This document shows positions 3,755 through 63,515 of a DNA stretch of 64,000 nucleotides, one piece after another. The notes under the pieces are model-generated. The model ran no database searches. It was not told where the DNA came from and worked only from the letters and a program-made list of their open reading frames with translations. Positions within the stretch are counted from its first letter, which is position 1. Every line of letters begins with the position of its first letter. The stretch comes from Chloroflexota bacterium (GTDB lineage: Bacteria > Chloroflexota > Chloroflexia > QHBQ01): positions 16,125 to 80,124 of the forward strand of contig JANXYP010000200.1 in NCBI GenBank assembly GCA_025355955.1, given 5' to 3'. The position numbers were made by a program, and so were the translations under genes.

Positions 3755-3872
3755 CTTGAGTTCATGACCAGGGCAAACCGTTGTTCGCCCCTACTGAACG
3801 CTTACTCCGCAAGAACGTGACGCGCACTCGGTTTTTACAAATCAAAACTCAAAACTCAAAACTCAAAACTCA
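3755..3872. repeat. Family-1 REP-like core with inverted loop plus conserved tail (3755..3835), followed by the heptamer tandem repeat (tcaaaac)x4 at 3842..3869
   Basis: Direct reading. ccagggcaaaccgttgttcgcccctac tgaacgcttactccgcaagaacgtga, then acaaatcaaaactcaaaactcaaaactcaaaactca. Confidence 0.8.
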
Positions 3873-4645: not shown

Positions 4646-5371
4646 ATGCCGTGCGCGGAAACCAGACCACTGATGAGCGATGCACACCTCGACCCAACTC
4701 TTTTGATCGAGATATACTCCCGGCTAGTCGCCAGCTATGGCCTGCAAGAATGGTGGCCGAGCCAGACTGGTACACCGTTCGAGGTTATCGTCGGCGCGAT
4801 CCTGACCCAGGGTACTAGTTGGCGCAGTGTGGAGCGCAGCATCACCAACATCATCGCCGCCGATGCCATGTCGCCCACCGCCATCCAGCAAATGCCTCGT
4901 GCAGATCTGATTGATCTAATTCGCCCGTCAGGGTATTATAACGCGAAAGCGGCCAAGCTACAAGCCTTCACCACCTTTTTGTTCGCGCAGCACGGCGGCG
5001 ATCTTGCCAGCCTGTTTGCCCTGCCCGTGACGGAGATGCGCCACCAACTGCTGGGCGTGTGGGGCATTGGCCCCGAAACCGCCGACGACATCATCCTCTA
5101 CGCCGCCTGCCAGCCCATCTTCGTGGTCGACTCCTACACCCAACGCATCCTCACCCGCCTGGGTATCGTCGCCCCCGCCATCACCCACCACGCGCTGCAA
5201 GAACGCTTCGCCAGCCTGCCAGCCGATGTGCCGCTGTTCAGCGAATACCACGCTCTGCTCGACGAACACGGCTCGCGCACCTGCCGCCCTACCCCTCGCT
5301 GCGCCGCCTGCCCCTTGCTCGATCTGCCCTGCCAGTATGGGCAGCAGCGGATGCTGAGTGCTGAGTGCTGA
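4646..5371 (+). CDS. Endonuclease III-like HhH-GPD DNA glycosylase with C-terminal 4Fe-4S cluster loop (C-x6-C-x2-C-x5-C)
   Basis: 241 aa with HhH-GPD core and a C-terminal Cys cluster RTCRPTPRCAACPLLDLPC. Alternative start at ATG 4673 (MSDAHL). Stop codon lies inside a (gctgagt)4 repeat. Confidence 0.7.
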   Translation: MPCAETRPLMSDAHLDPTLLIEIYSRLVASYGLQEWWPSQTGTPFEVIVGAILTQGTSWRSVERSITNIIAADAMSPTAIQQMPRADLIDLIRPSGYYNAKAAKLQAFTTFLFAQHGGDLASLFALPVTEMRHQLLGVWGIGPETADDIILYAACQPIFVVDSYTQRILTRLGIVAPAITHHALQERFASLPADVPLFSEYHALLDEHGSRTCRPTPRCAACPLLDLPCQYGQQRMLSAEC

Positions 5372-5380
5372 GTGCTGAGT
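5353..5380. repeat. Heptanucleotide tandem repeat (gctgagt)x4 spanning the stop codon of the HhH-GPD gene
   Basis: atgctgagtgctgagtgctgagtgctgagtgcc. TGA at 5369..5371 lies inside repeat unit 3. Confidence 0.9.
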
Positions 5381-5386
5381 GCCTCG

Positions 5387-8235: not shown

Positions 8236-9114
8236 ATGCTCAGGCCATCTATGCCTCTACCACCGATCCTCTCCCACTATCAGGCTAGCCCCATCCTTGA
8301 AGCGCGACGCAAGGGGCAATCAACCGTGACCACCTCGCTGGATCTGGGCCGCAGTAGCGTGGAAGTGTCACTCACTGCCAGCGGCCTGCTGCTCCCTGAT
8401 GGGCAGGAACTCGGCTGGGCGGCGCTGGAGAAGGTAAATGGCGACGAGAACAAGTGCTTCACCGTCGAGGGCGGCGCAATCCAGCCGATCATCGTTCACT
8501 CGCCAACCACCAACTGGGTACGCACCCTATACCCCACCGCTGCTGCGCCAACTACCCTGGTCGCAGGCTTCCTCATGCACCGCATCAAGGATATTGACCC
8601 GTTGCAAGATACCCGCCGCAAAATCGCCACGATTGCGCCGATTACTGGCGCAGTGTTGGACACCGCTACCGGCCTCGGCTACACTGCGATCGAGGCGGCC
8701 CGCACCGCTACCCATGTTACCACCATCGAGCTAGATGCGGGCGCATTGGAGATTGCCCTGCTCAATCCCTGGTCGCAGCCGTTGTTCGACAATCCAAAGA
8801 TTACGCAAATAATTGGCGATGCCACTGAGGAGATCGCGAAGTTCGCCGACGGCCGGTTCAATCGCATCCTGCATGACCCGCCCACCTTCAGTCTGGGCGG
8901 CGAGCTATACTCCGCTGCCTTCTACGCCCAGCTATATCGGGTGCTGGGGCAGGGCGGACGGCTCTTCCACTACATCGGCGACCTCAGCAGCAGCTACGGC
9001 AGCCGCACGGTCAAGGGCGTGGTCCGCCGCTTGTTGGATGCAGGTTTCAGTCGGGTGGTGAAGAAGGATGAGGCGTTTGGGTTGGTGGCTACGAAGTTAA
9101 AAGTTGAAGGTTGA
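8236..9114 (+). CDS. Class I SAM-dependent methyltransferase with DPPF (motif IV) amino-methyltransferase signature (RsmD / N6-adenine-methyltransferase-like)
   Basis: The ORF track starts at 8170 inside the MITE. First ATG after the element is 8236. ILHDPPTFSLGG motif. The C-terminal residues and stop are encoded by a heptamer repeat. Confidence 0.55.
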   Translation: MLRPSMPLPPILSHYQASPILEARRKGQSTVTTSLDLGRSSVEVSLTASGLLLPDGQELGWAALEKVNGDENKCFTVEGGAIQPIIVHSPTTNWVRTLYPTAAAPTTLVAGFLMHRIKDIDPLQDTRRKIATIAPITGAVLDTATGLGYTAIEAARTATHVTTIELDAGALEIALLNPWSQPLFDNPKITQIIGDATEEIAKFADGRFNRILHDPPTFSLGGELYSAAFYAQLYRVLGQGGRLFHYIGDLSSSYGSRTVKGVVRRLLDAGFSRVVKKDEAFGLVATKLKVEG

Positions 9115-9137
9115 AGGTTAAAAGTTGAGGGTTGAGG
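9096..9137. repeat. Heptanucleotide tandem repeat ((a/g)gtt(a/g)a(a/g))x6 spanning the stops of two convergent genes
   Basis: agttaaaagttgaaggttgaaggttaaaagttgagggttgag. Confidence 0.85.
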
Positions 9138-28012: not shown

Positions 28013-31000
28013 CTACGGTTGCATCAGCCGGTACAGCACCCTGGCGATTTCGGCGCGGGTGATGTTGGCGTTGGGGTGGAACTGGCTGCCCGCATAGCCG
28101 CTGAACACTTGGTGGTAGGCGGCGGCCTCGATGTATATATACGCCCAGTAGTCGGGCGGCACATCGCTGAACAGCGGTGGAATCGGCGTGTTGGTGGCCC
28201 AGCCTTGCGCTTTCACCAGCATCCTGGCCGCCTCAGCGCGGCTAATGGTACGCACCGGGTTGAACATATGGTTGCCGTCGCCGCTGACCACTCCCCGCGC
28301 CGCCAGCGTCTCCACCCAGGGGTAGGCCCAGCTCCAGGGCAGCACATCGGCGAAGGTAGGTGCGGTAGGCGCGATTTGCGGCCAGCCCTCCGCCAGAGTA
28401 AGCAGCTTGGCAAACTCGGCGCGGCTGGTGGGGTTGTTGGGCCGGTAGGTGTTGTCGAGATAGCCGCTGACCACGTTCTGGCAGTAGAGGTACTGGATGT
28501 ACTGGTAGGCCCAGTAGCCAGTTGGCACGTCGTCGAGGTGGAAGTGGCAGGGGCGCGGCGTATCGCTCGGCTCCGGGGTGGGATTGCCGTAGCGGATGGT
28601 GACGGGAATGCCAATCAGTTGCGCCGCATTGCTGGGGCCGAGGAACGCCTGACCCTGCCAGATGCCGCTGGTCATGCCCGGCTTATTCCAGGCCAGGGTG
28701 AGGCCAACCTGCGAACCGGCCGGGATGGTGCCGCTGATCACTGCTGGTGTAAAGCTGAGATCGGTGCCGCCAATGGTGTTGATGGTCAGGTCGAAGTGGG
28801 TGCCAGCGCTGGGAATGTTGGTGCCGTCCACGCGGATGCGGTAGTCGCCATCCAGCGCCGGGCTGATGCGGATGAATTCGTCGCCGCTCGGCCCGGTCGA
28901 TGCGGCGATCTCGTTCCAGCGGTTGTTGAAGAAGCGATCGAGGAAGAGGTCGATGTCGGCATCGTTGTCGGCGTGGGTAGTGAGTTCGAGTGCGGCGGTG
29001 TTGGTTAGCGTCAGGTTGTCGAACCAGGTGCCATACTGTACCACGTACAGGTTGCGTAGGGTGCTTTGCTGGCTGAGGCCGAAGGCGCTGGTGCGTAGGC
29101 CATTGGGCAGGGTCAGGCCAGTGGTGAGCGTAATCGGCACGCTGCCGCTGCTGGAGTTGGTGCTGACATCCACGCTGGCGCTGCTGAGGTTGACGATGCC
29201 CAGCGTGTCGGTGAACGGCTCGGCGGGGGCGCGCCCGGCGTAGCCGACGTTGTGGTGGACGATCTCGTGCGCCGCCTGCACGTTGTTGAGGTGGGTGGAG
29301 ACCCACTCCTCGGTGGCGCCGGTCACGCTCTGGAAGGGGAAGATGCCGCCGCCGATCCAGGAATTGACGCTGCCGCCCAGCAGCCACTCAGGGTAGGGGC
29401 CGAACAGGTTGGGGTAGGTGGTAGAGAAGAAGTCCCAGGGCGCGGGGCCAAGCACCACCGTATCTATATCGGTGGGATAGTGATTCCATTTGGTGTTGAC
29501 CCAGAGGAAGTCGTTGCCGCCCACCTGCTGGGTGTTGTTGACAAAGAAATTGCGCCACTCGCCCGAGTCGGGCCGCCAGTTCCAGTCAATCGCGCCGCGC
29601 ACCTGCCCGCTATCGAAGATGCTGGCTGAGGGTGGCGTGCCGCCCAGGGTGGTGTCAAGTGCGGGAGCAACCACGTTGGCAGCGATGGGGATAGTCTGGG
29701 TGTAGGCAACGTGGCCGGGGCTGGGATGGGTGGCTACCGTGAGCGCGCCCTCATAGGTGCCGGGTGGCTGGCTAGATGGCGCGGTGAAACTGGCGACGAA
29801 GGTTGCCTGGCCATGCGCCGGCACGATAAGCTGCGTCGCGCTCAAATTGCTGACCATCGGCCATGCCTGGTGGTGGTAGAAGGTGGCTTTCAGGTTGATG
29901 GTGGTGGTGAGGATGTCGCCCGCATCGAAGCGGTGCTGCAAGCCGACGAAGAAGCCATCCTTGACCCGCTGCAAGGGCTGCTGCACCCACATCTGCAAGA
30001 TAGTGCCTGCATTATAGGCGTAGGCGAAGCGGTTGAACTCTCCGCTCTGATACTCGCCGTCGTTGACCACCCCATTGTGGTTGTCGTCGTGCCAGACGAT
30101 GCCGTCGTGGTTTTGGTCGTGCCAATCGTAGGCCAGCAGGCTCCAACTGCTCTGATTGCTGAGATAGAGCGAGGTGGGGGTAATCACGCTAAACTGCTCA
30201 TAGGGGAAGTAGGCGGTAAGCTGCACCAGGTCGGTGCCGAGCGGGATCTGGTTGCTGAGATTCCAGAGGTAATCGGGGCGGCTGAAGTTGGCGGGACTCT
30301 CATTGGTGATGCTGGTGGAAACCGACCAATCGAGGCTGCCGGTTGCCACCAGGTTGTCGCTGCCCAGATTGGCGGTGAGCGGTGCGGGGCTGGGGTTATT
30401 CAGGGTGAAGCTGCGAGTGAGGGTCAGGCCGGGAGTGATGAAGCCGATCGCGCCGGGGCTGCTGCTACCCACGTTCCAGGCTGAGGGGCTGGTGTAGAGG
30501 CCCGCATTTGCGGCGGCAATGTCCACCGTGCGACCAGCGTCTACCTGGCCTGCGCCCTGGGCGAACACATCGTAGTTGAGGTTCTTCGCCCCCGCTTTGA
30601 GGATGTCCTTCGCTACCTCGCCATCGGGGTAGTAGCCGTGCGCCGACTTGTATGCCTGATAGAGCAGCGCGGTTATGCCCGCCGCTTCGGGCGTAGACAT
30701 ACTGGTGCCGCCCCACAACACCCAGTCGTTCCAACCATCGTGGCCGCCGGAGGGAGCCAGCTCGTTAATCGGGATGTCACCGCTGCCCCACGCGCCCACC
30801 GATACAATATCCGGCTTGGGCTGGCCGCTGGCGGCGGGGCCGCGATTAGACCAGGGTTGCACATCGTTGAACTTGATCTGGTCGGTGCCGCTAATCGGGT
30901 CGAAGGTGGTGGTTTCGCCGTACTGGGTGGATGCGCCCACACTGATGACGTAGGGTGAGGTAGCCGGTGGCGTTACCGTGCCGTAGCCGGGGCCGCCGTT

Positions 31001-32803
31001 GCCGCTGGCGACCAGCACGGCGGTGTTGGGCGCGTACTGGCGCAGCAGCGCAGACAGATAGCGCGATTGGAAGTCCCAGCCATTATCCGCGCCGCCGGAG
31101 AAGCCGAAGCTGAGGCTGACAACCTGGGCATCGTCGCCGCTGCCGGGGATGCCATCGTAACCGTAGGTCATCAGCATATAAGCGTCGTAGATAGTCTGTA
31201 CGCTCTGGTAGATATTGCCGATGGCGATCAGTTTAGCGTGCGGCGCGGTGCCTTGCACCATACCGCCCACGCCCGCGGGTTTGTAGGGGGGATAGCCGTC
31301 ATGATGCCCGTCAATCACTCCTTGCGCCACAATCGAAGAGGCGCACAGGGTGCCGTGATCCTGGCCGTAGCCAAAGCTGCCCATCATCGCCACCAGGCTG
31401 CCATTGGCGGGCGGCAACTCGGCGTAGAGCCAGTCGCTGGCGGGGATGGGGGTGTGGCCGTCGGCGACGAAGTAGAGCATCCCGGTACTGCGGTCGGCGT
31501 AGCCGTCACCATTGTAGTCGCGGGTGGCAACCTCGTGACCCTTGTACAACGGGTCATCGTCGCGGAAGTCGTGGTTGTTGTTGAGATCCACGATCACAGT
31601 GTCGTACACACCTGCGGTGTGCGCGTCTACCACCAGCACAGCGGGATACTCGTGGTAGGTATCGTAGACCAGGTTCTCGTCGGGGTGGATGCCGATGTGG
31701 TAAATACCGCTCTTGCTGGTGCCGGGCAGAGTGTAGGTGTGGCTGATGGGAGAGAGGCCCAGGTCGCTCTCCGCTGCGGTGGTGAACACTGCGGTCGCGC
31801 CGCTGACGGTCGTGCTGGTGTCAATATACCACGAACCCCAGCCAGTGATCGCGCTGCTGACGTTGTGGCTGATGCCGTAGTTGTAAAGCTCCATGCTCCA
31901 AGGGTCGTAGGCTAGCGGCCAGCCATAGTATGGCGAGTTGGGGTTGTCGTCGCGGGCATAGGTGTTCTGCAAATCGGGATGACCGAAGTCCACGCCGGTA
32001 TCCAGCAGCGCGACCTTCACTCCGTCGCCTTGGTAGCCTGCGTTCCAGGCGCTATGCACGTTCATTACGTCGAGCGCGTGCCAACTGTCGGGCGACCCGG
32101 ATGAGTTTTGAGATTTGAGATTTGAGTTTTGAGTTGGGCTATTGGCTGCTGAGGATGTCTTATCTGCGGTTGTAGGGGCGAACCGTTGTTCGCCCTGCTG
32201 AAGCAGCACGGACCCCTTCCCAACCTCCCCTGGTGGGGGAAGGGTTTTGCTTTGAGTGCCGAGGGTGGGGCGTTGGGGCAACGATGGGGGATTGGGTTTC
32301 GCTGACCCCGCTCTGCAATTTGCAATCTGCACTCCGCAATCCGGCAGCGGTGGCACTTCGACCGCGCTGTTATCCATCACCTGCACCACATTGGCAGGGA
32401 CAGCCAGCTTCAACACCTGGCTGGCGGCTACCGCGCCGAAGTTGAAGACCAGGCCGTTAGGGTCGGGGCGGCGGGAGACACGGTTCTGCAGCGGCACGCT
32501 CTGAGGCAACGCGCCGACACTGACCACGATGACGCTGAGACGCTCACTATCCTGGGCAGCGGCGGCCTTGTCGCGCAGCATCGGGCTGACTTTCTGTTTG
32601 AGCGGGTCGCTGGCGGCGGTGACTTGACCCAACTTCTGCGCGGCTGGCACAGCGGGGGCGTGCTGCATATCGGCAGGGGCGGGCGGCTGGGGCGGCAATG
32701 GCCCATAAGGGGCCGACTGGGCTAGCAACGCGGGCAGCATCAGAGCCAACAGCAGGGGTATGATAAAGCGTACCCGGCGGTGAGAGGTGGTAGGCAGTTT
32801 CAA
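28013..32803 (-). CDS. S8 (subtilisin-like) serine peptidase, ~1597 aa: signal peptide, I9-like propeptide, repeat-encoded linker, catalytic domain (D-T-G / HGT / GTSMSTP), large beta-rich region, three C-terminal SLH domains
   Basis: The ORF track starts at 33154 inside family-3 repeats. TTG at 32803 (GGAG 8 nt upstream) gives MKLPTTSHRRVRFIIPLLLALMLPALLAQSA. Catalytic triad motifs ALLDTGVDFGHPD, HGTLCAS, GTSMSTPEAAG. SLH-type repeats at the C-terminus. Confidence 0.7.
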   Translation of the reverse strand: MKLPTTSHRRVRFIIPLLLALMLPALLAQSAPYGPLPPQPPAPADMQHAPAVPAAQKLGQVTAASDPLKQKVSPMLRDKAAAAQDSERLSVIVVSVGALPQSVPLQNRVSRRPDPNGLVFNFGAVAASQVLKLAVPANVVQVMDNSAVEVPPLPDCGVQIANCRAGSAKPNPPSLPQRPTLGTQSKTLPPPGEVGKGSVLLQQGEQRFAPTTADKTSSAANSPTQNSNLKSQNSSGSPDSWHALDVMNVHSAWNAGYQGDGVKVALLDTGVDFGHPDLQNTYARDDNPNSPYYGWPLAYDPWSMELYNYGISHNVSSAITGWGSWYIDTSTTVSGATAVFTTAAESDLGLSPISHTYTLPGTSKSGIYHIGIHPDENLVYDTYHEYPAVLVVDAHTAGVYDTVIVDLNNNHDFRDDDPLYKGHEVATRDYNGDGYADRSTGMLYFVADGHTPIPASDWLYAELPPANGSLVAMMGSFGYGQDHGTLCASSIVAQGVIDGHHDGYPPYKPAGVGGMVQGTAPHAKLIAIGNIYQSVQTIYDAYMLMTYGYDGIPGSGDDAQVVSLSFGFSGGADNGWDFQSRYLSALLRQYAPNTAVLVASGNGGPGYGTVTPPATSPYVISVGASTQYGETTTFDPISGTDQIKFNDVQPWSNRGPAASGQPKPDIVSVGAWGSGDIPINELAPSGGHDGWNDWVLWGGTSMSTPEAAGITALLYQAYKSAHGYYPDGEVAKDILKAGAKNLNYDVFAQGAGQVDAGRTVDIAAANAGLYTSPSAWNVGSSSPGAIGFITPGLTLTRSFTLNNPSPAPLTANLGSDNLVATGSLDWSVSTSITNESPANFSRPDYLWNLSNQIPLGTDLVQLTAYFPYEQFSVITPTSLYLSNQSSWSLLAYDWHDQNHDGIVWHDDNHNGVVNDGEYQSGEFNRFAYAYNAGTILQMWVQQPLQRVKDGFFVGLQHRFDAGDILTTTINLKATFYHHQAWPMVSNLSATQLIVPAHGQATFVASFTAPSSQPPGTYEGALTVATHPSPGHVAYTQTIPIAANVVAPALDTTLGGTPPSASIFDSGQVRGAIDWNWRPDSGEWRNFFVNNTQQVGGNDFLWVNTKWNHYPTDIDTVVLGPAPWDFFSTTYPNLFGPYPEWLLGGSVNSWIGGGIFPFQSVTGATEEWVSTHLNNVQAAHEIVHHNVGYAGRAPAEPFTDTLGIVNLSSASVDVSTNSSSGSVPITLTTGLTLPNGLRTSAFGLSQQSTLRNLYVVQYGTWFDNLTLTNTAALELTTHADNDADIDLFLDRFFNNRWNEIAASTGPSGDEFIRISPALDGDYRIRVDGTNIPSAGTHFDLTINTIGGTDLSFTPAVISGTIPAGSQVGLTLAWNKPGMTSGIWQGQAFLGPSNAAQLIGIPVTIRYGNPTPEPSDTPRPCHFHLDDVPTGYWAYQYIQYLYCQNVVSGYLDNTYRPNNPTSRAEFAKLLTLAEGWPQIAPTAPTFADVLPWSWAYPWVETLAARGVVSGDGNHMFNPVRTISRAEAARMLVKAQGWATNTPIPPLFSDVPPDYWAYIYIEAAAYHQVFSGYAGSQFHPNANITRAEIARVLYRLMQP

Positions 32804-32934
32804 AGTAGGTCTCCAATCCAGAGGGGGAAGAAGGGGCGGTTCGCAGCTACTAAACCCAGTATAAAACAGCGAGGACGGGTTGTCAATCAGTGTGTTGCAA
32901 GGGGTGCAATTCACAGTTTTGCGATCATCGGGGC

Positions 32935-33120
32935 GGATGGCGTTCGCCCCTACGTCGACATTGGTGCTGGCGATGGGGATTGATGCGCTTCGAGCGGGCG
33001 GGCAGCCGCCCGCCCCTACCCCAACATTCGTGCTTTCGATGAGCATTGGTGCGCTTCGAGCGGGCGTATGCCATGCGCCCCTACACCAACATTGACGCTC
33101 ATGATGGGCATTGATGCGCC
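32935..33120. repeat. Three tandem ~60-bp family-3 repeats (cattggtgcgcttcgagcgggcg(g/t)… gcccctac), each ending in a REP-like GGGCG…CGCCCCTAC hairpin
   Basis: Homologous to the 2-copy array at 40463..40598 (…gcgcttcagcagggcgtatgccatacgcccctacgggtaaatccgc). Confidence 0.7.
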
Positions 33121-33192
33121 GCACTGACGCACAAAGGTATTGGCCAAGGGCCATTCTCAGCAGCTACGTATGCAACTACCAACAGCGTTTCA

Positions 33193-34227
33193 TTATTCAA
33201 GCTCATCGGCCTCCTGCGTAGAAAGGTGATTGGCACTTTGTTTCCACACATTACTTCGATGCCAATCGAGCACCTCTTTAGGAGGACATATAGCTTCATT
33301 ATTGGGCAGCAGTATTTGCTTGCCATCCATGTTCATTAGATCGAAGTTGTTGGTATCTGCTATCATCAACACGGGGCTAAGAGTTATTCTATAATCATCA
33401 GTTAGGGTGAACAGTCCGTTATCAAAAGCCCAGTGGTGAGTACGGCACAACGCCAAGCCATTACGTGGGTCATCTGTACTATTCTGCTCTTTCGGCACAA
33501 TGTGCGCTGCTGTAACCTCTGACAAACCACCAAGCTGAACCTTCAAGCCGCAAACAGCACATGTATAATCGTACTCACGCAGAACCAAACGACGAAAGGC
33601 ACTGTCTCTTTGGGGCGAGGTTGCAGTGTAACTGACTCGCTTCTCTTCAATGAATAGCTGAAACTCATCGCTCAAATGAGCATATAGTTGTACTTCTTGG
33701 CTAGCATCTTCCGTATCTGGTATTTGTGATATCTCCATTAGAGAGGAATCATCAATGCCTACAATAACAAACCGATCTTCATCTGAATTATAACTTTCAA
33801 TTAGCCCCAATCCCAGAATTTTATAGGTACAACCTTGTAGCTTGTCGTATTTGTCTGTTAGACGCTCAAGCACAACGAGAGGAACTTTATCGCTCATGCA
33901 TTTCAACAAAGCATTTTTGTCTGACATAGCAGACCTATCATTAGGACTAGTAGGTGGTGAGTAGGTAATACTCCATCGTCCATCTTGAAGATACGAGATG
34001 CTATCTTTATTACCATATCGGCTATCTGCAATGATTTTTACAGACAGGGCATACTCGGAACCTTTCGGCTTATAGACACCTCTGGCTCTAGTGACCAAAT
34101 ACTTTAGTTCAGGAACATACAAAGATATGTTTTCGATATAGGTGCAAGGAAGGGATCTTCCCGTGTACTTAACAAGCTTCGTAAGAGCTTTAGCACGTTG
34201 CTCGTTAGGCATATTATACCTTCCCAT
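33193..34227 (-). CDS. HNH-family nuclease (C-terminal CAVCG…AAHIVP…NGLALCRTHHWAFDNGLF) with ~230-aa uncharacterised N-terminal domain, in a low-GC island. Candidate modification-dependent (type IV-like) restriction endonuclease.
   Basis: 344 aa. GC content ~43% versus ~64% in the flanks. HNH motif (C-x2-C … H … N … H-x3-H-like). A terminator-like hairpin ggcggtaac…gtcaccgcc lies just beyond the 34227 end. The N-terminal domain is not assignable by eye. Confidence 0.65.
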   Translation of the reverse strand: MGRYNMPNEQRAKALTKLVKYTGRSLPCTYIENISLYVPELKYLVTRARGVYKPKGSEYALSVKIIADSRYGNKDSISYLQDGRWSITYSPPTSPNDRSAMSDKNALLKCMSDKVPLVVLERLTDKYDKLQGCTYKILGLGLIESYNSDEDRFVIVGIDDSSLMEISQIPDTEDASQEVQLYAHLSDEFQLFIEEKRVSYTATSPQRDSAFRRLVLREYDYTCAVCGLKVQLGGLSEVTAAHIVPKEQNSTDDPRNGLALCRTHHWAFDNGLFTLTDDYRITLSPVLMIADTNNFDLMNMDGKQILLPNNEAICPPKEVLDWHRSNVWKQSANHLSTQEADELE

Positions 34228-34296
34228 CGATGGCGCTAAAGGCGGTAACGCTTGGTTTTGTCACCGCCTTTGCTATGCCGCTTTGTAGTCTGATGT

Positions 34297-35190
34297 TTAG
34301 CCCTTGACCGAACCGGCCAGCAGCCCGCGCACGAAGTAGCGGCTGAGGAAGATATAGAGTATCAGCGGCGGCAGTGCGGCGATGATTGCGCCTGCCATCT
34401 GCACATTCCACTGCACACTGTAGCTGCCCGCCAGGTTCTGGAGCGCGACGGTAATCGGCTGCGAACTGGGGTTGCTGACCAGATTGATGGCGAACAGGAA
34501 CTCGTTCCACACCGCGGTGAACTGCCAGATCAGCACCACGATGAAGCCGGGTACCGAGATGGGGAAAAGGATGTGGCGATAGATACCGAAGAAGCCTGCG
34601 CCATCGATGCGTCCCGCCTCGACCAACTCGGTTGGCACGCCCGCATAGTAGTTACGGAAGATCAGGGTGCAAATGGGCAGGCCGTAAATGACATGGGTGA
34701 GAATCAGGCCATACAGGTTGCCGTAGAGGTGTATGGCGCTCAAGGTGCGGGTCAAGGGGATGAGGATGGCCTGATATGGGATGAACATCCCGTACAGGAT
34801 GAGCGGGAAGATGATGTTCGCGCCGGGGAATTGCCACTTCGCCAGCACGTAACCATTGAGCGAACCGATGATCGCGGTAATCAAAGTAGCGGGAATAACC
34901 AGCTCGAAGCTGTTGAAAAAGCTGCCAGCCAGGCCGGTAATGGATTGGGACTCGCTGCCAAACCAGGCATCGCGGAAGCTGTCGAGGCTGAAGCCAGTGG
35001 GCAGGGTCCACATATGGCTGAGGTTCACCTCAGTGTACGCTTTGAGGCTGGTGGTGACCAGGATGTAGACTGGCAGCAAATAGAAGACGGTGAACATCAG
35101 CAGCACCGCATAGATAACAATGCGCCAGGGATTGAAGCGGCGGGGCGGGGCGGTATAGACCGCTGGTGGGTTGGTGGCAATCGCGCTCAT
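34297..35190 (-). CDS. Carbohydrate ABC transporter permease (MalG-like)
   Basis: 297 aa, 6 TM. The EAA-type loop region TELVEAGRIDGAGFFGIYRHILFP is typical. Confidence 0.75.
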   Translation of the reverse strand: MSAIATNPPAVYTAPPRRFNPWRIVIYAVLLMFTVFYLLPVYILVTTSLKAYTEVNLSHMWTLPTGFSLDSFRDAWFGSESQSITGLAGSFFNSFELVIPATLITAIIGSLNGYVLAKWQFPGANIIFPLILYGMFIPYQAILIPLTRTLSAIHLYGNLYGLILTHVIYGLPICTLIFRNYYAGVPTELVEAGRIDGAGFFGIYRHILFPISVPGFIVVLIWQFTAVWNEFLFAINLVSNPSSQPITVALQNLAGSYSVQWNVQMAGAIIAALPPLILYIFLSRYFVRGLLAGSVKG

Positions 35191-36122
35191 TGCTTCACCT
35201 CGTTTCGGAAGTTGAAGATCAGGTAGGGGATGATCAGGATGCTGACCAGGATGAGCAGAATCATGGCAATGGCTGCGCCACTGGAATACTCGTTAGCCGC
35301 GATGGTGTCGAACATATTGAGGGCGGGTACATCGGTGCCAAAGGCGGGGCCATGGCCGCTCATGGCGAACACCAGGTCGAAAATCTTGAGCGAGATATGG
35401 CCGAGGATGATCACCGCGCTGAGGGTAATCGGCTGCAGCAAAGGAAAGATGATGCTACGGAACACCTGCCACTCGGTTGCGCCGTCCACGCGGGCAGCCT
35501 CGCGGATTTCGTCGGGGATGGCGCGCAGGCCCGCAATGTACATCGCCATCACATAGCCTGACATCTGCCATACCGCCGCTAGCGCCACCGAGAAGATGCC
35601 GCTATCGGCGTTGGAGAACCAGGTCCAGGTGAGGGGGTCGAGGTTGAACAATTGATCCACGCCATGTGGATCGCCTGCGGTGCCAGGCGAGAGCAGCCAA
35701 CGCCAGGCCACGCCAGTTACGATGAATGAGATCGCCAGCGGAAACATGAAAATATTGCGGAAGATAGCTTCGCCCTTGACCTTTTGATCGAGCAGGATGG
35801 CGAGCAGCAGCCCAATCGCAAGGCAGACGACCAGGAAAGCGATGGTAAAGAACAGGGTGTTACGCAAGTCTTGCTGGAAGCGGAAGGTACTAAACAACTG
35901 CTGATAGTTTTGCAAGCCAACGAACTTGTTCGTATAGTTGGATTGGTTCCAATCGATGACCGAGATGTAGGCACTCGCTCCAATGAAGAAATAAACGAAG
36001 ATGGCGATGGCGATTATTGAGGGAGCGATGACCGCGATGGAGATAATCCGATCAATTCTAACCCGCCGTTTCTTCGGCTCGTAGGGGGCAACAGCAGTCA
36101 TTACCGTATCTGCCTGGCTCAT
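35187..36122 (-). CDS. Carbohydrate ABC transporter permease (MalF-like)
   Basis: 311 aa. EAA loop IPDEIREAARVDGATEWQVFRSIIFPLL. 4-nt overlap with the downstream permease. Confidence 0.75.
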   Translation of the reverse strand: MSQADTVMTAVAPYEPKKRRVRIDRIISIAVIAPSIIAIAIFVYFFIGASAYISVIDWNQSNYTNKFVGLQNYQQLFSTFRFQQDLRNTLFFTIAFLVVCLAIGLLLAILLDQKVKGEAIFRNIFMFPLAISFIVTGVAWRWLLSPGTAGDPHGVDQLFNLDPLTWTWFSNADSGIFSVALAAVWQMSGYVMAMYIAGLRAIPDEIREAARVDGATEWQVFRSIIFPLLQPITLSAVIILGHISLKIFDLVFAMSGHGPAFGTDVPALNMFDTIAANEYSSGAAIAMILLILVSILIIPYLIFNFRNEVKQ

Positions 36123-36189: not shown

Positions 36190-37629
36190 TTACTTGCCCA
36201 TTGCAGTCGCTGCGGCAGTTACCAGTTGGGACTGGGTAGCCGTAACATCCTGCTTGGTAACGAAAGCATTGACCGCATCGGTGTAGTCCTTGACCCAGCT
36301 TGGCTTCGCGGCAGCACCGTGGACAACGCTAGGAACAATCGTGTCCTTGGTCCAGTCGCTCATCGCGCTCTTGAGGTAGTCGTTGTAGCTGGGTTGACCG
36401 GCGGCTGGCTTACCGGCATCGGTGCGGGCCGGAATCGAACCCTTGAGCGGGTTGAAGATGTCCTGACCCTGCTGCGAACCAGCCAGCTTCAGCCAGGCGA
36501 TGGCGTTGTCACGATCAGGTGCGCCCTTCGGCAGAGCGAAAGTGTCGGACAGCGCATCGTAGATGCCCTTGGTACCGGGGGCGTTAACCCAGCCGTAGTT
36601 GGTGAAGTTCTTGGCGATATAGTCGGCGTTGGCCCAGTCGCCCATGATGGTCATAGCGGCCTTGCCGGAGATGACTTCGCTGTTGGCCTGGTCCCAGCTC
36701 AACGAAGCGTGGTCGGAGTTGATGTAGCCTAGCATCTTCTTGAAGGTGTTGAGCGCTTCGGTGACCTTGGGGTCGTCCCACTTGGTCGTGCCAGTCCACA
36801 GACCCTTCCAGCCATCTGCGCCGAGGGTGCCGAGCAGCACAGTCTCCATAAGGTGCGGGGCAGCGAAGCTATCCTTGTCGCCGAGGGCCAGCGCGGCAAT
36901 ACCTTTGGCCTTGAGCGCATCGGCGGCGGTGAAGAAGTCAGCGAAGGTCGCGGGCGGCTGCAGGTTGTTGTCGCTGAACACCTTCTTGTTGTACCATAGT
37001 ACGTTGGCGCGATGGATGTTGACCGGCACCGACCAGTAGTGCTTGGTGCCGTTGGCATCGGTGGAAGAGACGATGTCGAGAACGCCCTGGGGGAAGGTCT
37101 TGGTCCAACCCTCGGACTGATAAAGGCTGGACAGATCCTCGACCTGACCGGCAGCGACGGGGCCGTCAATCAGTTCGTGGCCCATATGGATCTGGAAGGC
37201 ATCGGGTGGGTTGTTGTTCTGCAAACGGTTGTTCAGTACCGCGTGAGCATCCTGGCCCGCTCCGCCTGCCACCGCCGAGTTGACGATGTTGACGTTCGGG
37301 TAGGTGACGTTATAAGCCTGATACAGCTTCTTGAGACCGGCTGCCTCACCGCCGGTGCTCCACCAGGAGAACATCTCAAGTTTGCCGGTAAGGCTGGAAT
37401 TGCTGGTGCCAGTCATCACTGCTGTGCCAGTCATCACTGCCGTACTTGCCATTACGGGTGTGTTCGCCATTACGGCTGTGTTCGCCATTACGGGTGTGCT
37501 GCCGCCGCTGCCAGTAGCCGCGCCCGCGCTAGGGGTCGATGTGCCATTGTCGCCGCCGCAGGCAGCGAGCAGGGGTAGCAGCATCAGGATGCTAGCCAGG
37601 GTTAGGATGTTATACTTGGGTTTCCGCAC
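36190..37629 (-). CDS. ABC transporter extracellular solute-binding protein (family 1, sugar-type), lipoprotein
   Basis: GTG at 37629 with AGGAGG 7 nt upstream gives MRKPKYNILTLASILMLLPLLAACGG. In-frame 18-bp tandem repeats (TAVMTG / TPVMAN) follow the lipobox. Confidence 0.7.
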   Translation of the reverse strand: MRKPKYNILTLASILMLLPLLAACGGDNGTSTPSAGAATGSGGSTPVMANTAVMANTPVMASTAVMTGTAVMTGTSNSSLTGKLEMFSWWSTGGEAAGLKKLYQAYNVTYPNVNIVNSAVAGGAGQDAHAVLNNRLQNNNPPDAFQIHMGHELIDGPVAAGQVEDLSSLYQSEGWTKTFPQGVLDIVSSTDANGTKHYWSVPVNIHRANVLWYNKKVFSDNNLQPPATFADFFTAADALKAKGIAALALGDKDSFAAPHLMETVLLGTLGADGWKGLWTGTTKWDDPKVTEALNTFKKMLGYINSDHASLSWDQANSEVISGKAAMTIMGDWANADYIAKNFTNYGWVNAPGTKGIYDALSDTFALPKGAPDRDNAIAWLKLAGSQQGQDIFNPLKGSIPARTDAGKPAAGQPSYNDYLKSAMSDWTKDTIVPSVVHGAAAKPSWVKDYTDAVNAFVTKQDVTATQSQLVTAAATAMGK

Positions 37630-38105
37630 TGAAGTTCCTCCTTGGGAATGATAACCTACATAGTTGAGTCGGGCGCTATAAAGCGCTGTTGGCGTACCCC
37701 CACGCACTCTGCCGATGAGGCGGCTTTGCCAAACCGGGTGTGCAGAAGCGAGGCTGCCGCGCTGAGGCTAGGGCAGCCGGTTGCTACGGCAATCGGGTTG
37801 GGCAAATCAGGGGGTGGCTGGTTGCAACTTGCAACGTTAGTGCCATTTTAGTCGGGCTTGTTCATTTTGTCAAGTCGCGGTACATACCAATTTGTGGCGA
37901 GGCCAGGCCGCCGTCCAAATCGGGATCCGGTTTCATCGGCCACCCGACAATTTGCCTTAGATGCGCTGTGCTTGACAAAAGCACTATGTCGGTGCTACAC
38001 TATAATCGTAGCGGTTCACAAGCAGATTCAAAGTAACCAGGCTGTCACCCTCCCCTGCGAGAACGCTTTTGTATTAGTCAATAGTTAGATTAGGAGGATT
38101 CAACA

Positions 38106-40309: not shown

Positions 40310-40337
40310 GGTGAATGGTGAATGGTGAAGGTGGATG
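40310..40337. repeat. Heptamer repeat (gtgaatg)x3-4 followed by the REP-like hairpin gtaggggcggcataaatcccgccc (40330..40355)
   Basis: ggggtgaatggtgaatggtgaaggtggatgtaggggcggcataaatcccgccc. Confidence 0.75.
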
Positions 40338-40462
40338 TAGGGGCGGCATAAATCCCGCCCTGGTGAAGCGTGTCACTAGCAAAAAAGCCGCTGCACCCCA
40401 TCCGATTATCCGTTTATTCGCTGTCACAATCCGCTGGCTTACCCGTTTCGCGCCCAGCATTA

Positions 40463-40598
40463 ACAGCTTGCGATAGGCATTGATGCGCTTCAGCAGGGCG
40501 TATGCCATACGCCCCTACGGGTAAATCCGCAACAGCTTGCGATAGGTATTGGTGCGCTTCAGCAGGGCGTATGCCATACGCCCCTACGGGTAAATCCG
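40463..40598. repeat. Two tandem 68-bp family-3 repeats (aacagcttgcgataggcattgatgcgcttcagcagggcgtatgccatacgcccctacgggtaaatccgc)
   Basis: Each unit contains the palindrome GGGCGTATGCCATACGCCC + CTAC. Confidence 0.8.
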
Positions 40599-40723
40599 CT
40601 TGTTTTCAGACAGCCTCTTAAACCAAGCTTAACCCTGCCTCTCCATATGTGAAAACTAAAGCGCAAAAATAAGCAATTGATAGCTGGTTGGCGAAGGATG
40701 CAATCGGTCGCGTCTTTGTATCT

Positions 40724-46334: not shown

Positions 46335-46770
46335 TCATTCCAATTAGCCAACGAGATGCTATAGTTCTGTAGGGGCGAACCGCTGTTCGCCCTGGCTCAA
46401 TCTATCGCGGCACCATCGATAATAGGAATAAGGCAAGCTCTCCCCCCACCAACCTACCCACAGGGAACCCCACAAGGGGGTTTCCCCGCTGGGGAGAGGC
46501 TTTTTGGCTTATCGTATTAGCCAACGAGATGCTATAGTTCTGTAGGGGCGAACCGCTGTTCGCCCTGGCTCAATCTATAGCGGCACCATCGCTAATGGGA
46601 ATAAGGCAAGCTCTCCCCTCACCAACCTACCCACAGGGAACCCCACAAGGGGGTTTCCCCGCTGGGGAGAGGCTTTTTGGCTTATCGTATTAACCAACGA
46701 GATGCTATAGTTCTGTAGGGGTGAACCGATGTTCGCCCTGGCTCAATCTATAGCGGCACCATCGCTAATG
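46335..46770. repeat. About 2.5 tandem copies of a ~180-bp composite repeat. Each unit is a family-1 REP-like core (gtaggggcgaaccgctgttcgccctgg) plus a terminator-like hairpin (ctctcccc…ggggagaggcttttt).
   Basis: Units start at ~46335, ~46517 and ~46688 (partial). Confidence 0.8.
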
Positions 46771-46777
46771 GGTATCG

Positions 46778-55790: not shown

Positions 55791-55925
55791 GACGGACCTC
55801 CGAGAAGGTAGCAGGTAGTGGGTAGAAGGTAGAATGTGGTGGCTGGCTGGTGAAGTATCGATGCCTCTATTATAGCGACAAGTGGGGGTGTGGGCAAGAG
55901 GGTGCAATCCATCAAGCTCTTTGCT

Positions 55926-55955: not shown

Positions 55956-56042
55956 TATGTGAGAGTGCAGGCGCGCTGAATCCGCGCCGCTACAAAGCAG
56001 GCTTATCCAACGCGACAGATATAGCATGACCAATCACGCCAC

Positions 56043-56084
56043 AATCCGAAATCCAAAATCCGAAATCCAAAATCGAAAGATCGG
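56043..56084. repeat. Heptamer tandem repeat (aatccga/aatccaa)x6 in the hppD 5' leader
   Basis: aatccgaaatccaaaatccgaaatccaaaatcgaaagatcgg, ending 12 nt before the hppD ATG. Confidence 0.85.
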
Positions 56085-59239: not shown

Positions 59240-59274
59240 CAATCTGCAATCTGCAATCTGCAATCTACAATCAG
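59240..59274. repeat. Heptamer tandem repeat (caatctg)x5 in the hmgA leader
   Basis: ccaatctgcaatctgcaatctgcaatctacaatcagg. Confidence 0.85.
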
Positions 59275-60777: not shown

Positions 60778-60962
60778 ATACCAATTAGCCGCGCAGCTAG
60801 TACAAATTGGACCAGGGCGAACAACGGTTCGCCTAACAGATCGCCGAACAGAATGGACCAGGGCGAACAACGGTTCGCCTAACAGATCGCCGAACAGAAT
60901 GGACCAGGGCGAACAACGGTTCGCCCCTACAGAACTATGGCATCGCCTCGGCTAATTGGTAT
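60778..60962. mobile_element. MITE-like element family 1 with three tandem copies of the core (43-bp unit ggaccagggcgaacaacggttcgcctaacagatcgccgaacagaat)
   Basis: TIRs ataccaattagccg … cggctaattggtat as at the other family-1 loci. The internal core is triplicated. Confidence 0.75.
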
Positions 60963-63411: not shown

Positions 63412-63515
63412 TGAATGGTGAATGGTAAATGGTAAATGAAAAGCAAGGTGCCTCCACGGGCTTGCTTTCTTGCTGATTAACCTGATTTACCATTCACCAT
63501 TTACCATTCACCATT
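63412..63515. terminator. Composite bidirectional terminator-like structure between convergent genes: (gaatggt/aaatggt)x4, hairpin aagcaaggtgcctccacgggcttgctt + tcttgc, (accattc/accattt)x4
   Basis: The two heptamer arrays are near reverse complements, so they can extend the central hairpin into a ~28-bp outer stem. Confidence 0.55.

What the first reader, a model, noticed from the sequence alone, without database searches (positions are those of the whole stretch)
33155..34260. Single-gene low-GC island: HNH nuclease with a novel N-terminal domain (candidate type IV restriction enzyme)
The 1.1-kb segment holding the 344-aa ORF has ~43% GC against ~64% on both sides, with sharp boundaries: a family-3 repeat array on one side (a possible insertion hotspot) and a hairpin ggcggtaac…gtcaccgcc on the other. 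The protein has an unambiguous C-terminal HNH core (CAVCG…AAHIVP…NGLALCRTHHWAFDNGLF) and ~230 N-terminal residues with no motif I can name (…YVPELKYLVTRARGVYKPKGSEYALSVKII…LVVLERLTDKYDKLQGCTYKILGLGLIESY…). Standalone reader-domain + HNH proteins of this size are the usual format of modification-dependent restriction enzymes (McrA / SRA-HNH / COG3440-like). The foreign composition argues for recent horizontal acquisition as a defence gene. If it is a new modified-base reader, it would be both biologically new and useful as a tool.
Basis: partly seen in the sequence, partly recalled or inferred. Interest (0 to 1): 0.7.

Follow-up and report, generated by a model that had tools for sequence, protein, structure and literature searches.

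The report
Divergent SRA-HNH type IV restriction gene
The low-GC single gene encodes a stand-alone nuclease whose "unknown" front half is a sequence-divergent SRA domain (a pocket that reads flipped-out methylated cytosine) fused to a TagI-type HNH cutter. It is therefore a fairly ordinary, uncharacterised member of a known class of enzymes that cut modified foreign DNA.

Summary
A 339/344-aa ORF at 33193..34212/34227 (-) has 42.8% GC (GC3 39%), against 60% for the window (neighbours' GC3 74-80%). This is the lowest-GC stretch in the 64 kb. It lies between a conserved hairpin and a 3x66-nt repeat array.

- **Type IV candidate: supported.** The HNH module keeps every catalytic and zinc residue of TagI. 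No DNA methyltransferase is adjacent in the window or any of the eight homologue contexts examined. The gene is under purifying selection (dN/dS 0.35).

The gene is therefore an SRA-HNH enzyme of the TagI/ScoA3IV kind, from a large unannotated SRA clade (449 clusters), mostly fused to HNH_2 and rarely to an AAA_5 ATPase, NOV_C or MTaX1. Base specificity is not established. The two pocket tyrosines are conserved, but the canonical Asp position holds an invariant Lys-Asp pair.

The host is a Chloroflexia bacterium. Its closest relative carries a Dcm/EcoRII-type R-M pair at the same site. A 91%-identical copy sits at the same junction in another sample, so acquisition is not very recent.

The parts
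33193..34212 (-). Gene for the SRA-HNH protein (339 aa from the second ATG; the mechanical ORF runs to 34227, 344 aa; stop codon 33193-33195)
   Evidence: ORF list. SD-like GGGAAGG at 34219-34225, 6 nt before the ATG at 34212. Database proteins P0001 (100% identity) and P0002 (88%) are 339 aa. dN/dS versus L095 is 0.35.
34117..34212 (-). N-terminal helical lead (aa 6-37 in 344-aa numbering) preceding the SRA barrel
   Evidence: AlphaFold model: helix 8-21, strand 25-27, helix 28-32. Conserved in the close family. Variable or absent in distant members.
33748..34116 (-). Divergent SRA (SET-and-RING-associated, PUA-superfamily) domain, aa ~38-160. Motifs: GVYKP 50-54, ALS 60-62, Y71, K74-D75, W85, TY89, N104-x-AL, VPLVV 115-119, Y135-x-x-LGLG.
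33568..33747 (-). Helical linker / pre-HNH region (aa 161-220), shared with other type IV HNH_2 enzymes
   Evidence: NCBIfam NF045808 and PADLOC PDLC04132 alignments start at aa 184-186. Helices 160-167, 173-183 and 204-218 in the model.
33403..33567 (-). HNH_2 beta-beta-alpha-Me nuclease core (aa 221-275). Zinc site C223, C226, C261, H264. Catalytic H242, N256, H265, D269. Also D252 and N270.
   Evidence: Pfam PF13391, E = 2.3e-15. Residue-by-residue alignment to TagI 6ghs, mapped onto the TagI active-site description. These residues are invariant across the family, except C223, which is nearly invariant.
33196..33402 (-). C-terminal extension of the HNH domain (aa 276-344). The last ~20 aa are poorly conserved.
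   Evidence: Matched to the ends of NF045808 (profile 137-284) and PDLC04132. The tail diverges between the window and L095.
34238..34271 (-). Stable hairpin between the ABC permease stop (34297) and the HNH start. Probably the operon's terminator or an mRNA-stabilising stem.
   Evidence: Pairing is kept in L095 through one double change (G-C to T-A) and two single-sided changes. No canonical U-tract on the minus strand.
33161..34336 (.). Extent of DNA homology with the independent relative L095 (91% identity). It covers the 3' end of the permease, the hairpin, the HNH gene and ~32 nt after its stop, which marks the downstream edge of the island.
   Evidence: blastn. The L095 tail has no match in the window.
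32929..33125 (.). Flanking 3 x 66-nt intergenic repeat array. It borders the island but is not part of the gene.
   Evidence: A related 69-nt pair lies at 40462-40599.

Best explanation
The gene encodes a stand-alone, NTP-independent, modification-dependent (type IV) restriction endonuclease of the SRA-HNH architecture.

By analogy with TagI and ScoA3IV, the proposed mechanism is as follows.
- The N-terminal SRA domain flips a modified pyrimidine out of the duplex, most likely 5-methylcytosine or 5-hydroxymethylcytosine, into a pocket walled by Tyr71 and Tyr89.
- The C-terminal HNH domains dimerise and, with Mg2+ or Mn2+, nick or cut the DNA some distance from the modified base.
- The host is presumed not to carry the cognate modification. 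The enzyme therefore attacks incoming phage or plasmid DNA that carries it.

The gene is an accessory, horizontally acquired cargo at a variable site just after an ABC sugar-transporter operon in a Chloroflexia genome.

Shown here: the fold, the catalytic residues, the domain fusions, the gene contexts, selection, and foreign composition. Inferred: modification dependence, the identity of the modified base, dimerisation, and cleavage at a distance.
For: **Fold**
- The N-domain model has pLDDT 91.6 and pTM 0.87.
- Foldseek on the full-length model puts TagI first, E = 1.8e-6 over 301 columns.

**Sequence**
- The broad N-domain profile has SUVH4, SUVH6 and SUVH5 SRA as its three best hits among 177,635 PDB sequences.
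- hhalign to UHRF1 SRA is colinear, and Y71/Y89 fall on Y466/Y478.
- Pfam SAD_SRA is hit weakly by 14 of 36 relatives.

**HNH module**
- HNH_2, E = 2.3e-15.
- All TagI zinc ligands and catalytic residues are conserved.

**Reader-domain behaviour**
- The same N-domain occurs in 449 clusters.
- Of 90 members of at least 200 aa, 64 carry HNH_2. One or two each carry an AAA_5 ATPase, NOV_C, DpnI_C or MTaX1, and another has a PF01844-type HNH.

**Context**
- No DNA methyltransferase is adjacent in the window or in 8 homologue contexts. This agrees with Lutz et al. 2019 for PUA-superfamily enzymes of this class.
- Neighbours include an SBD-HNH gene, an Abi_C protein followed by AAA_15/AAA_21 ATPase and UvrD-like helicase genes (Gabija-like by my reading), toxin-antitoxin pairs and IS elements.

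**Selection and composition**
- dN/dS is 0.35 overall and 0.19 in the SRA part.
- GC3 is 39% against 74-80% in the neighbours.

**Variable site**
- The gene is absent from all 80 related ABC loci.
- The closest relative has a Dcm-like methyltransferase plus an EcoRII-C endonuclease at the same position.
Against: - No biochemical data exist for any member of this clade.
- The query itself does not reach any Pfam SRA threshold, and a narrow family profile finds no SRA in PDB.
- The canonical pocket carboxylate (Tyr+3: Asp469 in UHRF1, Asp58 in TagI) is not in place. The query has Y71-G-N-K-D, and the close family has an invariant K74-D75.
- Relative to UHRF1, the thumb and NKR-finger loops appear shortened or deleted (a low-confidence alignment).
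- I could not inspect model coordinates, so pocket geometry is unverified.
- The HNH part of the full-length model had low confidence.
- No convincing own promoter was found.
Confidence: 0.75

Rival explanations
1. It is a modification-dependent SRA-HNH enzyme, but it reads a base other than 5mC/5hmC, for example a modified thymine/uracil such as 5hmU, N4-methylcytosine, or a hypermodified phage pyrimidine. The reason would be that the pocket carboxylate is displaced and an invariant lysine sits at the canonical Asp position.
For: - The close family has an invariant K74-D75 and a variable Tyr+2. The broader clade conserves Y-x-D rather than the canonical Y-x-x-D.
- In TagI and UHRF1 the Tyr+3 carboxylate is what selects cytosine over thymine.
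- The thumb and finger loops are shortened.
- SRA-containing enzymes with non-5mC dependence exist. HHPV4I is m6A-dependent (abstract); my recollection, not checked here, is that its winged-helix domain does the reading.
Against: - Loop alignments are unreliable at this divergence. D75, or D73 in the 88% relative, may occupy the canonical position in three dimensions.
- Both tyrosine walls are conserved.
- The best structural matches are genuine 5mC readers.
- The closest relative's allele at this site is an m5C system, so 5mC is in play in this clade's DNA pool.
Confidence: 0.15
2. It is a modification-independent nuclease: an orphan type II-like restriction enzyme whose methyltransferase lies elsewhere, or a nonspecific DNA-damaging toxin. 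The SRA-like domain would serve only as a general DNA-binding module.
For: - PADLOC's second hit is labelled "Type II restriction enzyme" (C-terminal half only).
- A prophage homologue is auto-annotated as a type II REase.
- Some homologues sit next to toxin-antitoxin genes.
Against: - No methyltransferase is adjacent in any context examined.
- No m5C or N6/N4 methyltransferase motif was found in the 64-kb window, though the regex check was crude.
- SRA folds are dedicated flipped-base readers, and the pocket tyrosines are invariant.
- An unregulated nonspecific nuclease would not be maintained as a lone gene under purifying selection.
Confidence: 0.06
3. It is a selfish homing HNH endonuclease or a phage-derived HNH (a packaging or homing accessory), which would explain the foreign composition.
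For: - Many PHROG HNH families match the C-terminal core.
- The gene is low in GC.
- Two Vibrio prophage-like elements carry a distant homologue of the N-domain.
Against: - The gene is not inside an intron, an intein or another gene.
- No full-length family member was found in 2.9 million IMG/VR contigs.
- PHROG matches cover only the HNH core.
- It is found at different chromosomal sites, often among defence genes.
- In the prophage it lies in the accessory region next to a defence gene.
Confidence: 0.02

Closest known systems
[quoted passage not shown]
   Same: - Same two-domain order (N-terminal SRA, C-terminal HNH) and similar size (~310-340 aa).
- Identical HNH logic: a CxxC...CxxH/D zinc site, His-Asn-His, an Asp four residues after the last His, and Ala before the first His.
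- Stand-alone, with no adjacent methyltransferase.
   Different: - TagI's SRA is found by UHRF1 at E = 1.5e-20. This protein's SRA is invisible to phmmer and to a narrow profile, and is only 13% identical in the structural alignment.
- There is an extra ~37-aa helical lead.
- An insertion lies between the two pocket tyrosines (17 versus 11 intervening residues).
- The thumb is shorter and the finger loop is largely missing.
- Tyr+3 is Lys, not Asp.
Eukaryotic SRA domains (UHRF1; Arabidopsis SUVH4/KRYPTONITE, SUVH5, SUVH6, SUVH9)
   Different: They are chromatin readers fused to SET or RING domains, not nucleases. This protein lacks the NKR-finger-type loop and the canonical YEDD pocket motif.
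ScoMcrA / SprMcrA (SBD-(SRA)-HNH, phosphorothioate-dependent; NCBIfam NF045808)
   Different: The sulfur-binding domain is absent: the score is 109 bits against a cutoff of 180, and the N-terminal half of the profile is unmatched. In one homologue locus a separate SBD-HNH gene lies next door, which shows that the two are distinct enzymes.
MspJI/LpnPI/AspBHI, PvuRts1I/AbaSI and SauUSI (SRA-like readers fused to other nucleases)
   Different: The catalytic domains differ (PD-(D/E)XK or helicase-nuclease). This N-domain is closer to canonical SRA than to these.
VcaM4I/TspA15I (EVE-HNH)
   Same: A PUA-superfamily reader plus an HNH_2-type nuclease. Weak full-length Foldseek and sequence hits come through the HNH part.

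Membership tests
SRA-HNH modification-dependent restriction endonucleases (TagI / ScoA3IV / TbiR51I) | N-terminal domain with the SRA fold (distorted beta-barrel of the PUA superfamily) | tested here: met
SRA-HNH modification-dependent restriction endonucleases (TagI / ScoA3IV / TbiR51I) | Sequence membership in Pfam SAD_SRA (PF02182) at the curated threshold | tested here: not met
   The query has no SAD_SRA hit even at E <= 1. 14 of 36 close relatives give only weak hits, best E = 0.0049. None of 90 distant clade members hits at E <= 0.01. A broad profile does reach the SUVH SRA domains, at E = 0.0027-0.09.
SRA-HNH modification-dependent restriction endonucleases (TagI / ScoA3IV / TbiR51I) | Flipped-base pocket walled by two tyrosines | tested here: met
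   Y71 and Y89 are invariant or nearly so across both the close family and the broad clade. They align with UHRF1 Y466/Y478 in hhalign. This is alignment-level evidence only; coordinates were not inspected.
SRA-HNH modification-dependent restriction endonucleases (TagI / ScoA3IV / TbiR51I) | Carboxylate three residues after the first pocket Tyr, reading the cytosine Watson-Crick edge (Asp58 in TagI, Asp469 in UHRF1) | tested here: inconclusive
   The query reads Y71-G72-N73-K74-D75. K74 and D75 are invariant or nearly so in the close family. The broader clade conserves Y-x-D. Asp may be shifted by one residue, or the pocket chemistry may differ.
SRA-HNH modification-dependent restriction endonucleases (TagI / ScoA3IV / TbiR51I) | C-terminal canonical HNH (beta-beta-alpha-Me) with a structural zinc site and an extra Asp metal ligand | tested here: met
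   HNH_2, E = 2.3e-15. C223/C226/C261/H264, H242, N256, H265 and D269 align with TagI C210/C213/C250/D253, H229, N245, H254 and D258. They are invariant or nearly invariant in the family.
SRA-HNH modification-dependent restriction endonucleases (TagI / ScoA3IV / TbiR51I) | Stand-alone gene without a cognate DNA methyltransferase | tested here: met
   There is no DNA methyltransferase next to the gene in the window or in L001-L003, L091-L094, L097 and L098.
SRA-HNH modification-dependent restriction endonucleases (TagI / ScoA3IV / TbiR51I) | Cleavage or toxicity that depends on 5mC/5hmC in the substrate | not testable with these tools
   This requires expression in dcm+/dcm- hosts and in vitro digests (as in the papers read).
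SBD-HNH phosphorothioate-dependent restriction endonucleases (NCBIfam NF045808; ScoMcrA/SprMcrA) | N-terminal sulfur-binding domain and a full-length match above the curated cutoff | tested here: not met
   109.3 bits against a cutoff of 180. Only profile positions 137-284 (the HNH half) align, to aa 184-329. The N-domain fold is SRA.
EVE-HNH endonucleases (VcaM4I / TspA15I group) | N-terminal EVE domain | tested here: not met
Homing / phage HNH endonucleases | Location in an intron, an intein or a phage genome, with a sequence-specific DNA-binding module | tested here: not met
   The gene is free-standing and chromosomal, between an ABC operon and a protease gene. No full-length relative was found in IMG/VR. 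PHROG hits cover the HNH core only.

The most novel reading that the evidence does not exclude
This unannotated SRA clade (449 clusters at 50% identity) has a re-wired pocket, with an invariant Lys-Asp in place of the canonical Asp, and truncated thumb and finger loops. It may therefore read a modified base other than 5mC/5hmC, for example 5hmU-type thymine replacements, N4-methylcytosine or hypermodified phage pyrimidines. That would give a new specificity class of type IV enzymes and a new epigenetic or phage-DNA mapping reagent.
Probability: 0.12. Interest if true: 0.6.

Novelty: new member of a known kind. Interest (0 to 1): 0.3.

Why it matters
As it stands, this mainly corrects an annotation. 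A widespread family now labelled only "HNH endonuclease" or "hypothetical protein" can be assigned as SRA-HNH type IV restriction enzymes, and the reader domain defines a large SRA clade that Pfam does not capture.

There are two modest points of biological interest.
- In two related Chloroflexia lineages the same chromosomal site carries opposite cargo. One holds an m5C-writing Dcm/EcoRII-type R-M pair. The other holds a putative reader-nuclease for modified cytosine. This is a small natural example of incompatible defence alleles at one hotspot.
- The deviant pocket motif makes the clade a reasonable candidate to screen for new modified-base specificities.

Neither point would surprise a restriction-enzyme specialist.

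Tried and rejected
- **Direct sequence searches for the N-domain.** phmmer and narrow-profile searches against PDB found only the HNH part or noise. hhalign of the narrow profile to UHRF1 was insignificant, although correctly registered. Global-mode hhalign gave a meaningless alignment (first run). Only the broadened profile and the fold comparison resolved the domain.
- **First full-length AlphaFold model.** It was mediocre (pLDDT 68, with the HNH part below 50), so I remodelled the N-domain alone with a more diverse alignment.
- **Sulfur-binding (phosphorothioate) reader.** Rejected.
- **EVE, McrA-N or winged-helix reader.** No support.
- **Mobile-element signatures.** There are no flanking direct repeats. 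The only flanking inverted repeat (33117-33130 / 34368-34381) has one arm inside the permease gene and is probably chance. There is no tRNA in the window, no Rfam family in 30-38 kb, and no integrase or transposase next to the gene.
- **Promoter scan.** It gave no convincing minus-strand promoter for the gene. The terminator scan did not call the hairpin on the minus strand.
- **Phage association.** No full-length relative was found in IMG/VR. Only 2 of 50,697 phage records and 1 of 72,556 plasmids carry even a distant N-domain homologue.
- **Source contig.** It could not be recovered beyond short Logan contigs.
- **Methyltransferase motifs.** A regex scan of the window found none, but the check is crude.
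Full report
**1. The observation**

The ORF is present at 33193..34227 on the minus strand, 344 aa. The first ATG has no ribosome-binding site. The second ATG (34212) follows GGGAAGG by 6 nt (sequence). It gives the 339-aa protein that public gene callers report (P0001 100% identical, P0002 88%), and it matches the N-termini of homologues. I take 33193..34212 as the gene.

The ORF is 42.8% GC, against 60.0% for the window (sd 3.6% for windows of this length). It is the lowest-GC stretch in the 64 kb; the next lowest is 51.9%. GC3 is 39%, against 74-80% in the four neighbouring genes.

The hairpin (34238-34249 / 34260-34271) and the 3 x 66-nt repeat array (32929-33125) are real.

**2. The neighbourhood**

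On the minus strand the gene order is as follows.
- A sugar-type ABC transporter: substrate-binding protein 36190-37707, then permeases 35187-36122 and 34297-35190.
- The hairpin.
- The HNH gene.
- The repeat array.
- A large secreted S8 protease with SLH domains, 28013 to ~32800. The mechanical ORF call runs on through the repeats.

There is no tRNA, integrase or Rfam element nearby.

The permease identifies the host as a Chloroflexia-class bacterium. The best match is 82%, to MAG LS1_sbin.36, and the other close hits are nearly all Chloroflexota.

**3. The C-terminal half**

Pfam finds HNH_2 at aa 223-275, E = 2.3e-15. NCBIfam's phosphorothioate-dependent enzyme model (NF045808) and a PADLOC HNH model match aa ~184-335 only, and NF045808 scores below its cutoff.

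The best solved relative by sequence is TagI (6GHS), the prototype SRA-HNH enzyme. I mapped that alignment onto the published TagI active site.

| Role | This protein | TagI |
|---|---|---|
| Structural zinc site | C223, C226, C261, H264 (CxxC...CxxH; the paper notes CxxH as a family variant) | C210, C213, C250, D253 |
| General base | H242, preceded by Ala | H229, preceded by Ala |
| Holds the general base | D252 | D241 |
| Structural Asn | N256 | N245 |
| Metal ligands | H265, D269 | H254, D258 |
| Dimer interface | N270 | N259 |

All are invariant in 36 family members except C223, which is nearly invariant. The nuclease is therefore predicted to be active and of the TagI type.

**4. The N-terminal half: the crux**

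The protein belongs to a well-populated family: 373 hits, ~320 aa, 44-50% identical over the full length, mostly from metagenomes and some from Chloroflexota MAGs. Only the HNH part is annotated in these.

Reading the alignment, I noticed SRA-like motif blocks, and I tested this lead in four ways.

  |---|---|
  | SUVH4 | 12.6 |
  | SUVH5 | 12.3 |
  | SUVH6 | 11.4 |
  | TagI | 11.3 |
  | UHRF1 | 11.1 |
  | SUVH9 | 10.2 |
  | ScoMcrA SRA | 9.2 |
  | MspJI | 8.9 |
  | LpnPI | 8.8 |
  | AspBHI | 6.9 |
  | SauUSI | 6.8 |
  | AbaSI | 6.8 |
  | PvuRts1I | 6.0 |

- **(ii) Pfam.** 14 of 36 close relatives hit SAD_SRA weakly, best E = 0.0049. The query itself does not.
- **(iii) Profile against PDB sequences.** The narrow profile found nothing. 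A profile broadened with distant clade members has SUVH4 (E = 0.0027), SUVH6 (0.033) and SUVH5 (0.09) as its top three among 177,635 sequences.
- **(iv) hhalign to UHRF1 SRA.** I first verified the UHRF1 sequence against PDB. The broad profile aligns colinearly over query 37-157 and UHRF1 10-164, P = 0.0023, through all motif blocks.

The N-terminal domain is therefore an SRA domain, sequence-divergent but closest in structure to canonical SRA. For scale, TagI's own SRA is found by UHRF1 at E = 1.5e-20, so this clade is much further out.

**5. How it differs from canonical SRA**

The two tyrosines that wall the flipped-base pocket (UHRF1 Y466/Y478, TagI Y55/Y67) correspond to Y71 and Y89. These are invariant or nearly so in both the close family and the broad clade.

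The carboxylate that reads the cytosine Watson-Crick edge sits at Tyr+3 in UHRF1 and TagI. The position varies here.
- The query reads Y71-G-N-K-D.
- In the close family, K74 is invariant, D75 is nearly invariant, and Tyr+2 is variable.
- The 88% relative has D at Tyr+2.
- The broader clade conserves Y-x-D.

The hhalign alignment also implies three structural differences: a 7-residue deletion in the thumb, a 12-15-residue deletion where UHRF1 has its NKR finger, and a 6-residue insertion between the pocket tyrosines. In the model that insertion forms an extra strand at aa 76-79.

These alignments have low confidence, and I could not inspect coordinates. The identity of the base that is read therefore remains an inference: 5mC/5hmC by analogy, with a real chance of something else.

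**6. The domain behaves as a reader module**

A profile of the N-domain alone finds 449 cluster representatives at E <= 1e-3 among 1.84 billion, 186 of them at E <= 1e-10. Of 90 that are at least 200 aa long, 64 carry HNH_2. The remainder include the following.
- An AAA_5 ATPase, which I read as McrB-like (P0202).
- A NOV_C domain (P0212).
- An MTaX1 "methylase-associated" protein, with the domain at its C-terminus (P0160).
- A PF01844-type HNH (P0249).
- A DpnI_C-containing protein.

By my reading, this kind of shuffling among effector modules is typical of modified-DNA sensor domains.

**7. Gene contexts of family members**

None of the eight homologue contexts, nor the window itself, has an adjacent DNA methyltransferase.

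| Locus | Neighbours |
|---|---|
| L001/L002 | Nucleotidyltransferase/HEPN pair |
| L003 | IS200-type transposase and an RHH protein |
| L091 | A second HNH, Abi_C, an AAA_15/21 ATPase plus a UvrD-like helicase (Gabija-like by my reading) |
| L092 | Directly followed by an SBD(ScoMcrA)-HNH_2 gene; SIR2 and DUF87 genes also in the locus |
| L093 | An intein-containing gyrB |
| L094 | An IS3-family (rve) transposase |
| L097 (Rhizobium megaplasmid) | Stand-alone |
| L098 (Vibrio prophage-like element) | In the accessory end, beside a PD-Lambda-5 defence gene |

This matches the published rule that fewer than 6% of PUA-superfamily enzymes of this class have a nearby DNA methyltransferase. Family genes are usually lower in GC than their flanks, for example 0.48 versus 0.63 and 0.39 versus 0.53. 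No full-length member occurs in IMG/VR.

**8. History at this locus**

- None of 80 related ABC loci from other genomes carries the gene. Synteny ends after the permease in all the close ones.
- In the closest relative (L007), the position 10 nt after the same permease holds a C5-cytosine methyltransferase (PF00145, E = 3.7e-90; Dcm-like in NCBIfam), followed by an EcoRII-C endonuclease. That is an m5C-writing R-M pair, at host-like GC.
- An independent sample contains a 91%-nt / 88%-aa identical copy (L095). Its contig starts with the permease 3' end. It keeps the hairpin, through one G-C to T-A double change and two single-sided changes. It loses homology ~32 nt after the stop codon, and its downstream sequence matches nothing in the window.

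The gene therefore entered this site after the split from the L007 lineage but before the window and L095 lineages diverged. It is foreign but not brand-new, and it has not ameliorated. dN/dS between the two copies is 0.35 (SRA part 0.19, HNH part 0.37), so the gene is maintained by selection. That the repeat array is an insertion hotspot remains untested.

**9. Mechanism proposed**

By homology with TagI, Sco5333 and Tbis1, the protein dimerises through its HNH domains. Each SRA domain flips a modified pyrimidine into the Y71/Y89 pocket. The tethered, weakly active HNH dimer nicks or cuts nearby DNA with Mg2+/Mn2+, without NTP. The host, presumed to lack the cognate modification, is spared, while methylated or hydroxymethylated invading DNA is cut.

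Steps shown here are the fold, the catalytic residues, the fusion pattern, the context and the selection. Steps inferred are modification dependence, base identity, dimerisation and cleavage at a distance. My confidence is ~0.75 for "SRA-HNH type IV enzyme" and ~0.5-0.6 for 5mC/5hmC specifically.

**10. Verdict**

The finding is real, but the exciting part, a novel reader domain, does not hold. This is a new, uncharacterised and sequence-divergent member of the known SRA-HNH class.

Residual novelty lies in three things: the unannotated SRA clade, its deviant pocket motif, and the alternative m5C-writer / putative modified-cytosine-reader cargo at one site in sister lineages. Interest 0.3.

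Noticed in passing
L007:1111-2891 (closest relative, Chloroflexia MAG LS1_sbin.36): At the position occupied by the SRA-HNH gene in the window, 10 nt after the same ABC permease, this relative carries a Dcm-like C5-cytosine methyltransferase (PF00145, E = 3.7e-90) followed by an EcoRII-C restriction endonuclease, both at host-like GC. This gives opposite cargo (an m5C writer versus a putative reader of modified cytosine) at one site in sister lineages.
   Followed up: partly
window 3842-3872, 5352-5382, 9103-9135, 32102-32135, 40310-40337, 55803-55834, 56039-56078, 59240-59272, 63414-63438, 63485-63515: At least ten short tandem arrays of 7-nt units (4-6 copies, mostly near-perfect) are scattered over the 64 kb. 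The one at 32102-32135 lies inside the S8/SLH protease ORF, where it encodes ..QNSNLKSQNS... A 7-nt unit in a coding region could allow slipped-strand frameshifting. From memory, this resembles cyanobacterial STRR heptamer repeats.
   Followed up: no
window 32929-33125 and 40462-40599; also 250-395, 46343-46772, 60808-60925: There are two families of intergenic, hairpin-bearing repeats. One is the 66/69-nt unit sharing GCATTGATGCGCTTC...GGGCGTATGCCAT(A/G)CGCCCCTAC. The other is built around GGGCGAACAACGGTTCGCCC, including a 173-nt unit repeated 2.5 times. They look REP- or MITE-like.
   Followed up: no
window 28013-33154 (-): The mechanical 1713-aa ORF for the S8-protease/SLH protein runs upstream through the repeat array. 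The real start is probably near 32790, just before a signal-peptide-like RRVRFIIPLLLALMLPALLAQSAP. A near-consensus promoter-like site, TTGACA-17-TATACT, lies at 32886-32858.
   Followed up: partly
window 34238-34271 versus L095:62-96: The hairpin between the permease stop and the HNH start keeps its pairing in a 91%-identical relative, through one compensatory G-C to T-A change and two single-sided changes. This suggests a functional terminator or stabiliser, although it lacks a canonical U-tract.
   Followed up: partly
L092:6001-7949: A family member is directly followed by a separate gene for a DNA-SBD(ScoMcrA)+HNH_2 protein, which is of the phosphorothioate-dependent type. This makes a tandem pair of type IV enzymes with different readers. 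SIR2 and DUF87 genes also lie in the locus.
   Followed up: no
L091:373-6703: A family member heads a run of defence-type genes: a second HNH protein, Abi_C, an AAA_15/AAA_21 ATPase and a UvrD-like helicase. The last two look Gabija-like.
   Followed up: no
L093:2267-5908: The gyrB gene next to a family member contains an intein with a LAGLIDADG homing-endonuclease domain.
   Followed up: no
P0202, P0212, P0160 (proteins): The same divergent SRA domain is fused to an AAA_5 ATPase (McrB-like by my reading), to a NOV_C domain, and, C-terminally, to an MTaX1 "methylase-associated" domain.
   Followed up: partly
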